DNA from: a virus
Taxonomy: Duplodnaviria; Caudoviricetes
Reading direction: 5' to 3' (one strand)
Length of the DNA: 24,025 nucleotides
Virus record (IMG/VR): IMGVR_UViG_3300020042_003772
Coordinates: 1-24,025 of that record
Shown: positions 1,014 through 2,979 of the stretch, in pieces
Layout: each line of letters begins with the position of its first letter
Numbering within the stretch: the stretch's first letter is position 1
Position numbers and translations under genes: made by a program
The notes under the pieces: generated by a model
What the model was told of the DNA's origin: nothing
Databases searched by the model: none
What the model saw: only the letters and a program-made list of their open reading frames with translations

Positions 1014-1635
1014 ATTAGTAGTAAACGTTCACGATCGTTTAGAAAACATTAAACTATGGATTAACGCTTGGGAACAATCCGAGCAACTCGATTACGAATT
1101 AGTGATAATTCAAAACCACCATGAGCCACAACCTGAATTTGAAGAGGTTTGCAAAGGCGTTAAATACATTAGACGTGTTGGAGTTGGTTACGATATCGGC
1201 AGTTTTCAAGATATTTGTAATGAGCGATTAGAGGGCTTTAGCAACGATTGGAATAAATTGTTATTCGTGTGCGATGATTGGCTACCGATGCGAAAAACAT
1301 TTTTAAAAGAGTTCGACGATAAGTATTCAAAAAATACGGTTGTATGCAATGAAATGAGCAACATCATTAAACCGCATATTAGAACGAGCGGGTTTTTAAT
1401 TGATAAGAATTTGAGTAAAAAGTTAAGGTTTGAAGTTGATCCGATTACAACAAAAGATGATTGCTGGAACTTTGAGCATAGAACGGCGCACTCATTTTTA
1501 GAACAATGCAAGCGTAATAATTACGAAGTAAAAACAGTATCACATATTTGGTGCGCTCCGATTTGGGATTCAGGACACCACCACCACACGAAAAGAATTT
1601 TGGAATATCAAACAAACTTTTATGAAGCTATCTAA
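1006..1635 (+). CDS. GT-A fold glycosyltransferase-like protein (GT2/RgpF-like)
   Basis: N-terminal beta strand LVVNVH, then ELVIIQN, GYDIGSF, LLFVCDD (DxD-like), PHIRTSGF, FEH. Confidence 0.6.
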   Translation: MNKLVVNVHDRLENIKLWINAWEQSEQLDYELVIIQNHHEPQPEFEEVCKGVKYIRRVGVGYDIGSFQDICNERLEGFSNDWNKLLFVCDDWLPMRKTFLKEFDDKYSKNTVVCNEMSNIIKPHIRTSGFLIDKNLSKKLRFEVDPITTKDDCWNFEHRTAHSFLEQCKRNNYEVKTVSHIWCAPIWDSGHHHHTKRILEYQTNFYEAI

Positions 1636-2215
1636 ATTAAAGGGCAACCCAAACAATCCCAGAATCATTAAAGACGATAAGTTTAAAAAACTTGTTAAAT
1701 CAATAAATGATTTTCCAAAAATGATGTCTTTACGTCCAATCGTAGTTGATGAGAATTTTATTGTGCAAGGTGGCAATATGCGATTAAAGGCATTGCAAGA
1801 AATCGGGTTTAAAGATATACCCGACGAGTGGGTTAAGCAAGTTAGCGACCTAAACGAAGATGAAAAGAAACAATTTATTATCAAAGATAACGTTGGCTTT
1901 GGCGAATGGGATTGGGACGATTTGGCGAATAATTGGGACGCGGAACAATTAACGGAGTGGGGTTTAGATATACCAAACTTTGTAAATAATAGCGATGAAT
2001 TTGGAACGGAGTTTAGTTTACCTGACGGCGACAAAGCACCATTTCAGCAAATGACTTTTACGCTTGCAGATGAACAAGCAACGCAAATAAAAAACGCTAT
2101 TGAAGAAATTAAGCGAAGTGAAGAATATAAATACGCCGAAACAATGGGCAACGAAAATTCAAATGGTAACGCACTTTATTTAATTATAATGCAATGGGCA
2201 GAGCAAAAGAAATAA
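1622..2215 (+). CDS. ParB/Srx-like N-terminal domain protein
   Basis: LKGNPNNPR, RPIVVDEN, GGNMRLKAL, IIKDNVGFGEWD: the ParB-like type usually found with phage DNA-modification enzymes next to the terminase. Confidence 0.85.
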   Translation: MKLSKLKGNPNNPRIIKDDKFKKLVKSINDFPKMMSLRPIVVDENFIVQGGNMRLKALQEIGFKDIPDEWVKQVSDLNEDEKKQFIIKDNVGFGEWDWDDLANNWDAEQLTEWGLDIPNFVNNSDEFGTEFSLPDGDKAPFQQMTFTLADEQATQIKNAIEEIKRSEEYKYAETMGNENSNGNALYLIIMQWAEQKK

Positions 2216-2979
2216 TCGTAAAAGTAATACCGTCAAAGGTTGCAAATGATTTTGTTAAAAAACATCATTATTCAGGCAAAGTTGTACCTAATTCAACTTT
2301 ACATTTTGGTTGCTTTTTAGATAATAATTTACACGGCGTTATGAGTTATGGAAATTCAATGGATAAATCTAAAGTTAAATTAGCCGTTGAAAATACAGGT
2401 TGGAACGAATTTATAGAATTAAATAGAATGGCATTTGACGAGTATTTACCTAAATATAGTGAAAGTCGTTGTATAGCAATCAGCATTAAATTAATAAAAA
2501 AAAATGCCCCACACATAAAATGGATTGTTTCTTTTGCAGACGGAAGTCAATGCGGAGACGGAACAATTTACAGGGCAAGCGGTTTTAAATTAATAGGTTT
2601 AAAAATAAATAATCAAATATTAAATTGGAACGGAAATATAATTGCTAAAAAAAGTTTAGATAATAAAAATTACCCTTCAATAAATGGTAAATATTTTTCA
2701 AGATATTTAATTGAAAAAGGAGAAGCAAAACCAATAGAGGGACATCAATTAAAATATATTTACTTAATAGATAAAACGTGTAAAATAACCGTTCCTATTT
2801 TACCATTTAGCAAAATAGATGAAATGGGCGCAGGAATGTATAAAGGCAAAAAAATAACCCTACAAGAGCGTAGGGTTACAAAGAGCGATGCAGTCGATTC
2901 GAACGCCACCCCTAATTTGGAAAACCAGTGTGCTACCATTACACCAACATCGCAAAACAAAAATAATAAAAGTAATTGA
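2194..2979 (+). CDS. mom: Mom-family (GNAT-fold) adenine hypermodification enzyme
   Basis: Motifs KHHYSGK, GVMSYG, IELNRM, SESR, IKWIVSFAD, GTIYRASGF, YIY, matching Mu Mom-like proteins as I recall the family. Confidence 0.8.
   Translation: MGRAKEIIVKVIPSKVANDFVKKHHYSGKVVPNSTLHFGCFLDNNLHGVMSYGNSMDKSKVKLAVENTGWNEFIELNRMAFDEYLPKYSESRCIAISIKLIKKNAPHIKWIVSFADGSQCGDGTIYRASGFKLIGLKINNQILNWNGNIIAKKSLDNKNYPSINGKYFSRYLIEKGEAKPIEGHQLKYIYLIDKTCKITVPILPFSKIDEMGAGMYKGKKITLQERRVTKSDAVDSNATPNLENQCATITPTSQNKNNKSN
2848..2878 (-). terminator. intrinsic terminator on the minus strand, directly downstream of the tRNA-like RNA
   Basis: Perfect 9-bp inverted repeat TAACCCTAC (2855-2863) / GTAGGGTTA (2870-2878) with a 6-nt loop, followed on the minus strand by T7 (A-run 2848-2854). 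Confidence 0.75.
2884..2953 (-). tRNA. tRNA-Gly(TCC)-like RNA with a non-canonical T-arm, antisense within the mom gene
   Basis: Reverse complement reads GCGATGT TG GTGT AATGGTA GCAC A CTGGT TTTCCAA ATTAG GGGT GGCG TTCGAAT CGAC T GCATCGC T. It has a 7-bp acceptor stem, a D-arm with GG, a 5-bp anticodon stem (2 GU pairs), TCC anticodon, TTCGAAT T-loop and U73. CCA is not encoded. Confidence 0.8.
2958..2965 (-). promoter_or_regulatory. Bacteroidota primary sigma -7 element driving the tRNA-like RNA
   Basis: Minus strand TATTTTTG matches TAnnTTTG and ends 4 nt before G1 of the tRNA-like element. The -33 position holds only a weak match (CGTG, 2988-2985). Confidence 0.55.

What the first reader, a model, noticed from the sequence alone, without database searches (positions are those of the whole stretch)
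2884..2953. The tRNA-like RNA departs from the canonical fold mainly in the T-stem, the EF-Tu contact region
Seen: the acceptor stem, D-arm (U8, A14, G18G19), an A15-U48 Levitt pair, the anticodon loop and the TTCGAAT T-loop are canonical. The T-stem is GGCG/CGAC, only 4 positions with a G-A mismatch, plus an extra U before the acceptor 3' strand. The anticodon stem has two GU pairs. Established: pairs 49-65, 50-64 and 51-63 set EF-Tu affinity, and non-proteinogenic tRNA-Gly species differ there. Inference: this focused deviation looks like selection to avoid EF-Tu and the ribosome rather than random pseudogene decay.
Basis: partly seen in the sequence, partly recalled or inferred. Interest (0 to 1): 0.8.

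Follow-up and report, generated by a model that had tools for sequence, protein, structure and literature searches.

The report
Bulged glycine tRNA partnered with Mom
This phage carries, overlapping the end of its gene for the DNA-disguising enzyme Mom, a glycine-tRNA look-alike with a fixed one-base bulge; the same RNA sits beside Mom genes in hundreds of phage sequences and likely serves as the enzyme's own glycine carrier rather than working in protein synthesis.

Summary
The RNA is real (minus strand, 2884-2953), but the T-stem was misread. Covariation in 53 distinct relatives shows a 4-bp stem (G49·U65, G50-C64, C51-G63, G53-C61) with a bulged A, not a G·A mismatch plus an extra U: 100% versus 61% of cells paired. 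The gene overlaps the 3' end of a Mom-family gene; Mu Mom takes glycine from Gly-tRNA-Gly to modify DNA adenines (PMC13219725).

80 of 80 close mom relatives carry the RNA. Starting from RNA patterns, 79 of 80 and 73 of 80 hits lie beside mom, against 0 of 80 ordinary tRNA-Gly genes. It lies after, antisense to, or before mom. Glycine identity bases and the bulged A are kept, while D-arm, T-loop and anticodon loop decay.

Best reading (0.72): a dedicated, host-charged glycyl donor for Mom. EF-Tu avoidance is plausible but untested. The stem's pairs are not weak binders by the published additive rule, so only the bulge could repel EF-Tu, and its fixed identity suggests positive recognition too. 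Not found in my paper searches; this scan noted Mom-tRNA pairs before on other DNA.

The parts
2884..2953 (-). tRNA-Gly(UCC)-like RNA gene, 70 nt, G1 to U73; the genome encodes only C74 of the CCA end
   Evidence: model R1 score 66.9 bits (the window is in the training set)
2892..2907 (-). T-arm: 4-bp stem G49·U65, G50-C64, C51-G63, G53-C61; TTCGAAT loop at 2903-2897
   Evidence: covariation
2894..2894 (-). Bulged A in the 3' T-strand, two pairs from the acceptor junction (between positions 63 and 64); family hallmark
   Evidence: 53/53; 41 of 42 and 43 of 43 new sequences by script, the remaining one by eye
2919..2921 (-). Anticodon UCC (C35, C36 are GlyRS identity bases)
   Evidence: NCC in 52/52 parsed relatives; identity set from PMC9976931 passages
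2958..2965 (-). Predicted Bacteroidota sigma-A -7 box (TAnnTTTG); at the published -12..-5 spacing the start site would fall on G1 (2953)
   Evidence: sequence; motif and spacing from PMC9723704 passages; upstream of the RNA in 38 of 53, on the other flank in 1 of 53, background 1.6% of 30-nt windows
2847..2879 (-). Predicted intrinsic terminator (11-bp hairpin 2879-2854 plus U-run) just after the RNA, inside the mom coding sequence
   Evidence: 16 of 24 antisense versus 0 of 29 sense relatives
2194..2979 (+). Mom-family DNA adenine hypermodifier; its last ~32 codons are the antisense of the RNA and are not conserved
   Evidence: Pfam PF25680 E 1.3e-52; PHROG 1384; PDB 8bv8 E 4.9e-21; tails
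1622..2215 (+). ParB-like gene overlapping the mom start; constant cassette partner
   Evidence: relative present in 80 of 80 loci

Best explanation
This is a phage gene for a glycine-tRNA look-alike with a 4-bp T-stem and an invariant bulged A, lying over the 3' end of a Mom gene; it is likely transcribed on its own, likely charged with glycine by the host GlyRS, and likely used as a dedicated glycyl donor by Mom to hypermodify adenines in phage DNA. Shown: structure, conservation, linkage to mom, kept glycine identity bases. From print: Mu Mom uses Gly-tRNA-Gly (PMC13219725), and EF-Tu sequesters ordinary Gly-tRNA from a non-ribosomal transferase (PMC7826273). Inferred: transcription from the -7 box starting at G1, termination in the mom tail, CCA completion by the host, glycylation, activity of this Mom, and the role of the bulge. 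The bulge lies between positions 63 and 64 of the EF-Tu contact strand; it would lower EF-Tu capture and may also be read by Mom.
For: Linkage gene-to-RNA: 80/80 close loci; 79/80 loci around a second query; around a third, 52/80 by model plus 27 of the other 28 by pattern; 20/30 genome loci. Linkage RNA-to-gene: 79/80 (4-bp pattern) and 73/80 (5-bp pattern) versus 0/80 for an ordinary tRNA-Gly pattern. Three layouts, after-sense, after-antisense and before mom (45 after and 28 before among the 73; 8 of 10 spot-checked frames are Pfam Mom), point to a trans-acting partner. G1-C72, C2-G71 and U73 are kept in 53/53 + 42/42 + 43/43; NCC in 52/52. Translation features are lost: 8-nt anticodon loop 19/52, U33 absent 15/52, D-loop GG absent 21/52, D-arm reduced or absent in about half of the distant set (24 of 43 sequences are 63-68 nt). 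Promoter and terminator follow the RNA's orientation. Mom residues matching Mu H58, Y59, R111, S124, D149 and Y159 are kept (numbering read by me). Host tRNA-Gly genes printed from four of five searched genomes have plain 5-bp T-stems.
Against: No RNA-level or biochemical data. Mu Mom works with all three ordinary E. coli tRNA-Gly, so a special donor is not required. 0 of 10 distant cultured-phage mom genes (34% identity or less) have the RNA adjacent, and 8 of 30 genome loci gave no hit. The bulge is not universal: in Clostridia-type loci it is U (L102), shifted (L101, L103) or absent (L098, L099, L109, which have shrunken anticodon loops instead); L100 has lost C35/C36. This copy is among the 7 of 52 that look canonical outside the T-stem. 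The residue matching Mu R151, essential there, is not kept. The -7 box is found in only 14 of 42 new sequences of the second set and 1 of 43 of the third. An 11-bp acceptor-T helix might hamper CCA addition. Related sequences are not independent events.
Confidence: 0.72

Rival explanations
1. The RNA binds Mom as a regulator or decoy (an uncharged or poorly transferring mimic that restrains Mom on host DNA or times it), not as the glycine source.
For: Same linkage data; an invariant bulged A fits a protein-binding mark; it has its own predicted promoter.
Against: The full GlyRS identity set, including C35/C36 and U73, is kept in nearly all copies, and CCA is encoded in 36 of 43 distant copies; this fits selection for charging.
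Confidence: 0.12
2. It is a working translational tRNA-Gly that tops up the Gly-tRNA pool that Mom drains, or replaces host tRNA cut by defence nucleases; the bulge is tolerated.
For: This copy has a canonical anticodon loop, G18G19 and TTCGA; its stem pairs are not weak EF-Tu binders by the additive rule; some odd tRNAs do translate in E. coli (PMC5389517 passages).
Against: 45 of 52 relatives depart elsewhere too and many lack a D-arm; ordinary phage tRNA-Gly genes are beside mom in 0 of 80; GGA is only 88 of 411 glycine codons in 19 window genes.
Confidence: 0.09
3. It is a cis element: an RNA-processing site or antisense control on the mom message, or a relic integration (att) site of a ParB-mom cassette.
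For: It always abuts or overlaps mom; the gene after it varies.
Against: Side and strand vary; all four stems covary; host tRNA-Gly lack the bulge and differ in the 3' half, unlike an att copy.
Confidence: 0.05
4. It is a decaying pseudogene.
For: Low Rfam score (36.4 bits); the isolated strand does not fold better than shuffles (z -1.2).
Against: 99% of cells paired, 305 cells with changes on both sides; invariant identity bases and bulge.
Confidence: 0.02

Closest known systems
Non-proteogenic tRNA-Gly(UCC) NP1-NP3 of Staphylococcus, donors for FmhB/FemA/FemB (PMC7826273, PMC3239215)
   Same: UCC anticodon, intact GlyRS identity set, altered T-arm, likely donor to a GNAT-fold transferase outside the ribosome.
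   Different: Those keep a 5-bp stem with weak pairs A49-U65, U50-A64, A51-U63 and are chromosomal cell-wall donors of staphylococci. This one has a bulged A and a 4- or 5-bp G-C-rich stem, is phage-encoded and fused to a DNA-modifying gene.
Phage Mu Mom with host Gly-tRNA-Gly (PMC13219725; PDB 8bv8; PF25680)
   Same: Same enzyme family; six of seven proposed active-site residues kept.
   Different: Mu Mom is described as scavenging host tRNA; term searches of the main text and two supplement files found no phage-coded tRNA partner. This clade has a ParB-like partner and its own RNA; the R151 equivalent is not kept.
8/4 tRNA-Sec and selC* tRNA-Cys with bulge 51a, allo-tRNAs (PMC5389517)
   Same: 4-bp T-stem with one bulged base; odd tRNAs also occur in phages.
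   Different: Those have an 8-bp acceptor stem (12-bp branch) and the bulge is at 51a on the 5' strand; here the acceptor is 7 bp, the bulge is on the 3' strand and the identity is glycine.
Ordinary bacterial tRNA-Gly (Rfam RF00005)
   Same: Cloverleaf, identity bases; passes the Rfam gathering score.
   Different: T-stem geometry; many relatives lose U33, G18G19, the T-loop consensus or the D-arm.

Membership tests
tRNA (RF00005), canonical elongator | Cloverleaf above Rfam gathering score | tested here: met
   36.4 vs 29 bits
tRNA (RF00005), canonical elongator | 7/5 acceptor-T branch with unbroken 5-bp T-stem | tested here: not met
   7/4 with bulged A
tRNA (RF00005), canonical elongator | Binds EF-Tu-GTP and decodes on the ribosome | not testable with these tools
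   needs bench assay
Bacterial GlyRS substrate | G1-C72, C2-G71, U73, C35, C36 | tested here: met
   sequence; set from PMC9976931 and PMC7826273 passages
Bacterial GlyRS substrate | Mature CCA end and actual glycylation | not testable with these tools
   only C74 is encoded here; CCA encoded in 36 of 43 distant copies
Staphylococcal non-proteogenic tRNA-Gly | Weak T-stem pairs A49-U65, U50-A64, A51-U63 | tested here: not met
   G49·U65, G50-C64, C51-G63
Staphylococcal non-proteogenic tRNA-Gly | Staphylococcal lineage, partner is a Fem transferase | tested here: not met
   phage contig; partner is Mom
Staphylococcal non-proteogenic tRNA-Gly | Weak EF-Tu binding, preferred by the transferase | not testable with these tools
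   works-like claim remains open
8/4 bulged tRNAs (Mukai 2017) | 8-bp acceptor stem, bulge at 51a | tested here: not met
   7-bp acceptor, bulge on the 3' strand
Mom family (neighbour gene) | PF25680 above cut-off; likeness to 8bv8 | tested here: met
   178.9 vs 27.1 bits; E 4.9e-21 over residues 4-136
Mom family (neighbour gene) | Active-site residues H58, Y59, R111, S124, D149, R151, Y159 | tested here: inconclusive
   six kept (H25, Y26, R78, S91, D116, Y126); R151 position holds S/Q
Mom family (neighbour gene) | Forms 6-NcmdA from Gly-tRNA | not testable with these tools
   needs LC-MS of modified DNA

The most novel reading that the evidence does not exclude
A widespread phage RNA family, from full cloverleafs down to 64-68-nt D-armless forms, is a purpose-built glycyl carrier for DNA hypermodification. 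Its bulged A both hides it from EF-Tu and is read by the cognate Mom, making a two-part protein-plus-RNA DNA-armouring system and a natural ribosome-orthogonal tRNA scaffold.
Probability: 0.45. Interest if true: 0.9.

Novelty: new variant of a known kind. Interest (0 to 1): 0.78.

Why it matters
The 2026 Mom paper leaves open how the enzyme gets Gly-tRNA when EF-Tu binds nearly all of it, and treats the donor as host tRNA. A phage-coded donor would answer that for a large Mom clade and extend dedicated non-ribosomal tRNAs from staphylococcal cell walls to DNA modification. The bulge would be a new kind of EF-Tu antideterminant or enzyme determinant. The family is easy to miss: ARAGORN called 38 of 80 close copies at default threshold, and the copy in cultured Psychrobacter phage vB_PmaS_Y8A is unannotated. 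That phage makes the idea directly testable.

Tried and rejected
G·A mismatch plus extra U, and the Rfam-type 5-position register: rejected. One search used a structure string one column off in the D and anticodon arms; superseded. The first element finder picked the wrong strand for some loci because the acceptor stem is palindromic; redone, with L049 set by hand. The first T-arm parser mis-registered five rows; redone choosing by inner pairs and loop only. The script stopped before printing L261-L263. Single-strand folding does not give the cloverleaf, as is common for unmodified tRNA; not used. The sigma-70 promoter scan gave nothing at the right place. Sequencing-run search: no RNA holder listed; no evidence either way. 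Rfam has no family beyond tRNA here. Staphylococcal-type weak pairs, GGA supplementation, att relic and pseudogene were considered and ranked low. Paper searches for a printed Mom-tRNA gene pair: searches returned 0 papers; some searches returned only the Mom papers and general reviews.

Full report
Setting. The window is a whole 24-kb phage contig with terminase, portal and lysozyme genes. The host is probably Bacteroidota (inference): four of the closer named relatives of the neighbour gene (63-68% identity) lie in Saprospiraceae and Chitinophagaceae bins, and a Bacteroidota-type promoter box precedes the RNA. ARAGORN and Rfam each find one tRNA, tRNA-Gly(TCC), on the minus strand at 2884-2953. 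It overlaps the last codons of ORF 2194-2979, a Mom-family gene (PF25680, E 1.3e-52; PDB 8bv8) preceded by a ParB-like gene. I read the abstract, Discussion, three Results sections and one Methods section of PMC13219725: Mom transfers glycine from Gly-tRNA-Gly to N6 of adenine in dsDNA, accepts all three E. coli isoacceptors, and rejects Gly-tRNA-Ala.

Observation. The T-stem parse is wrong. I fetched the 80 closest mom loci of 489 found; all 80 carry a related cloverleaf right after mom, giving 53 distinct sequences with the window. With the A at 2894 bulged out, all four stem positions pair in 53/53 and each shows two-sided changes; for example the outer pair is G-C 48, A-U 3, G·U 2 and the next is G-C 50, A-U 3. 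In the unbulged register the G-A column never pairs and the outermost pairs 5/53. Counting from the acceptor junction, the window has G49·U65, G50-C64, a bulged A, C51-G63 and G53-C61. The whole cloverleaf is 99% paired with 305 two-sided changes, above all 500 shuffles and far above slid controls. That is selection on structure, not decay, though relatives are not independent events.

What is kept and what is lost. G1-C72, C2-G71 and U73 are invariant in 53/53, and the anticodon is NCC in 52/52 parsed (UCC 49, ACC 2, CCC 1). These are the bacterial GlyRS identity elements (passages of PMC9976931 and PMC7826273). Translation features erode: 19/52 have 8-nt anticodon loops, 15/52 lack U33, 21/52 lack the D-loop GG, and only 7/52, the window among them, are canonical outside the T-stem. 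A model built from these hits 79/80 loci found with a second query (10 of the 52 distinct hits were training sequences). It hits 52/80 found with a third, more distant query, and 27 of the remaining 28 match an acceptor-plus-bulge pattern. Among 85 new distinct sequences the bulged A is found by script in 84 and by eye in the last. The distant set has a 5-bp stem with the bulge at the same distance from the junction; 24 of 43 are only 63-68 nt with the D-arm reduced or gone, and 36 of 43 encode CCA. Model and pattern both favour the bulge, but few loci were missed, so the bias is small.

Linkage. Starting from RNA patterns alone in viral contigs, 79/80 (4-bp type) and 73/80 (5-bp type) fully flanked hits have mom within 1.5 kb, against 0/80 for an ordinary tRNA-Gly(UCC) pattern (only the first 80 of 119, 90 and 120 loci had full flanks). 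Five of the eight misses are cut by contig ends, one more is Pfam Mom (L582), one has a GNAT frame (L520), and one has neither (L526). The RNA lies after mom in sense (45 of 81) or antisense (36 of 81) orientation, and before more distant mom genes in 28 of 73 (7 of 7 such frames checked are Pfam Mom). Orientation changes at least 8 times on the Mom tree. A cis role would not survive such moves; a trans partner would. Limits: 20/30 genome loci have it downstream, 2 have an unbulged tRNA-Gly about 1.2 kb upstream, and 8 gave no hit. 0 of 10 distant cultured-phage mom loci (of 163 records matched) have it adjacent. In several Clostridia-type loci the bulge is U, shifted or absent, the last with shrunken anticodon loops. 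Host tRNA-Gly genes printed from four of the five genomes searched have plain 5-bp T-stems.

Expression signals (predicted). A TAnnTTTG box lies within 30 nt upstream of the RNA in 38/53 (20/24 antisense, 18/29 sense, there often inside mom codons), against 1/53 on the other flank and 1.6% of background windows. In the window it is at 2965-2958; at the -12..-5 position given in PMC9723704 (passages) transcription would start at G1. A terminator-like hairpin follows at 2879-2854 inside mom, present in 16/24 antisense and 0/29 sense copies. The box is rarer in the other sets (14/42 and 1/43), as expected if hosts differ.

EF-Tu. Pairs 49-65, 50-64 and 51-63 set EF-Tu affinity (PMC11231383 passages; PMC3239215 sections 10 and 12). 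From Table 2 there, the window's pairs sum to -0.4 kcal/mol and the family consensus to +0.1, against +0.6 for the staphylococcal non-proteogenic set (my arithmetic). The staphylococcal signature is therefore absent, and the rule does not cover bulges (no occurrence of the word). The bulge interrupts the 63-65 strand, so weaker binding is a fair inference, not a result. If avoidance were the only demand, any bulged base should do; a nearly fixed A in a G-C frame suggests that something also reads it, most simply Mom. FmhB likewise reads D/T-arm features of its preferred tRNAs, and EF-Tu sequesters ordinary Gly-tRNA from it (PMC7826273 passages).

Mechanism, committed (0.72). The phage makes this RNA as a small transcript; host enzymes finish the CCA end and charge it with glycine; the bulged T-stem keeps it largely off EF-Tu; Mom takes the glycine to modify phage DNA against restriction. 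Structure, identity set and linkage are shown; every activity is inferred. Against: Mu Mom needs no special tRNA, distant moms lack the RNA, the Mu R151 equivalent is not kept, and this copy could still decode. Rivals: Mom regulator or decoy (0.12), translational top-up (0.09), cis element or att relic (0.05), pseudogene (0.02).

Novelty. It works like the staphylococcal non-proteogenic tRNA-Gly but fails membership, as it does for 8/4 bulged tRNAs (PMC5389517 passages). Term searches of PMC13219725, two of its three supplement files (the third is a PDF without text and may bear on this), the 2023 preprint (its supplements were not examined) and PMC7824862 show no phage-coded tRNA partner. Library searches found none; subscription papers are not covered. 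This scan's earlier notes describe Mom-linked odd tRNA-Gly on other genomes, and also odd families not linked to Mom. These are unchecked leads; the counts above are my own. Verdict: new variant of a known kind, interest 0.78.

Noticed in passing
L001-L080, 3' end of mom: RNA orientation is scattered over the Mom tree (14 changes, at least 8 forced by well-supported branches). Relatives at 93-94% identity differ in strand, which suggests repeated swapping of the mom tail module or repeated inversion.
   Followed up: partly
window 2854-2879 and matching codons in relatives: The same mom codons (K-K-I/V-T-L) carry a minus-strand terminator in antisense loci and a plus-strand -7 box in many sense loci.
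   Followed up: partly
L111 2162-2226 (Psychrobacter phage vB_PmaS_Y8A): Unannotated D-armless copy with the bulged A, 8 nt after the mom stop (E 0.011); a cultured test system.
   Followed up: partly
L098 2260-2429, L099 and L109 2310-2500: Tandem pairs of tRNA-like genes after mom with unbulged 5-bp T-stems but shrunken anticodon loops: possibly a second way to leave translation.
   Followed up: no
L514-L593 (28 loci): The RNA overlaps or abuts the start of distant mom genes; the mom reading frame often runs through the T-arm.
   Followed up: partly
window 1622-2215: ParB-like gene accompanies mom in 80 of 80 loci; role unknown.
   Followed up: partly
L033, L038, L064, L070 and others: In sense loci the mom stop codon often lies inside or beyond the RNA, so cutting the RNA out would leave a mom message without a stop codon.
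   Followed up: no
L086/L087 749-823: A tRNA-Gln(TTG) call upstream of mom in loci that lack the glycine RNA.
   Followed up: no
L520: Bulged RNA beside a GNAT frame that is not Pfam Mom.
   Followed up: no
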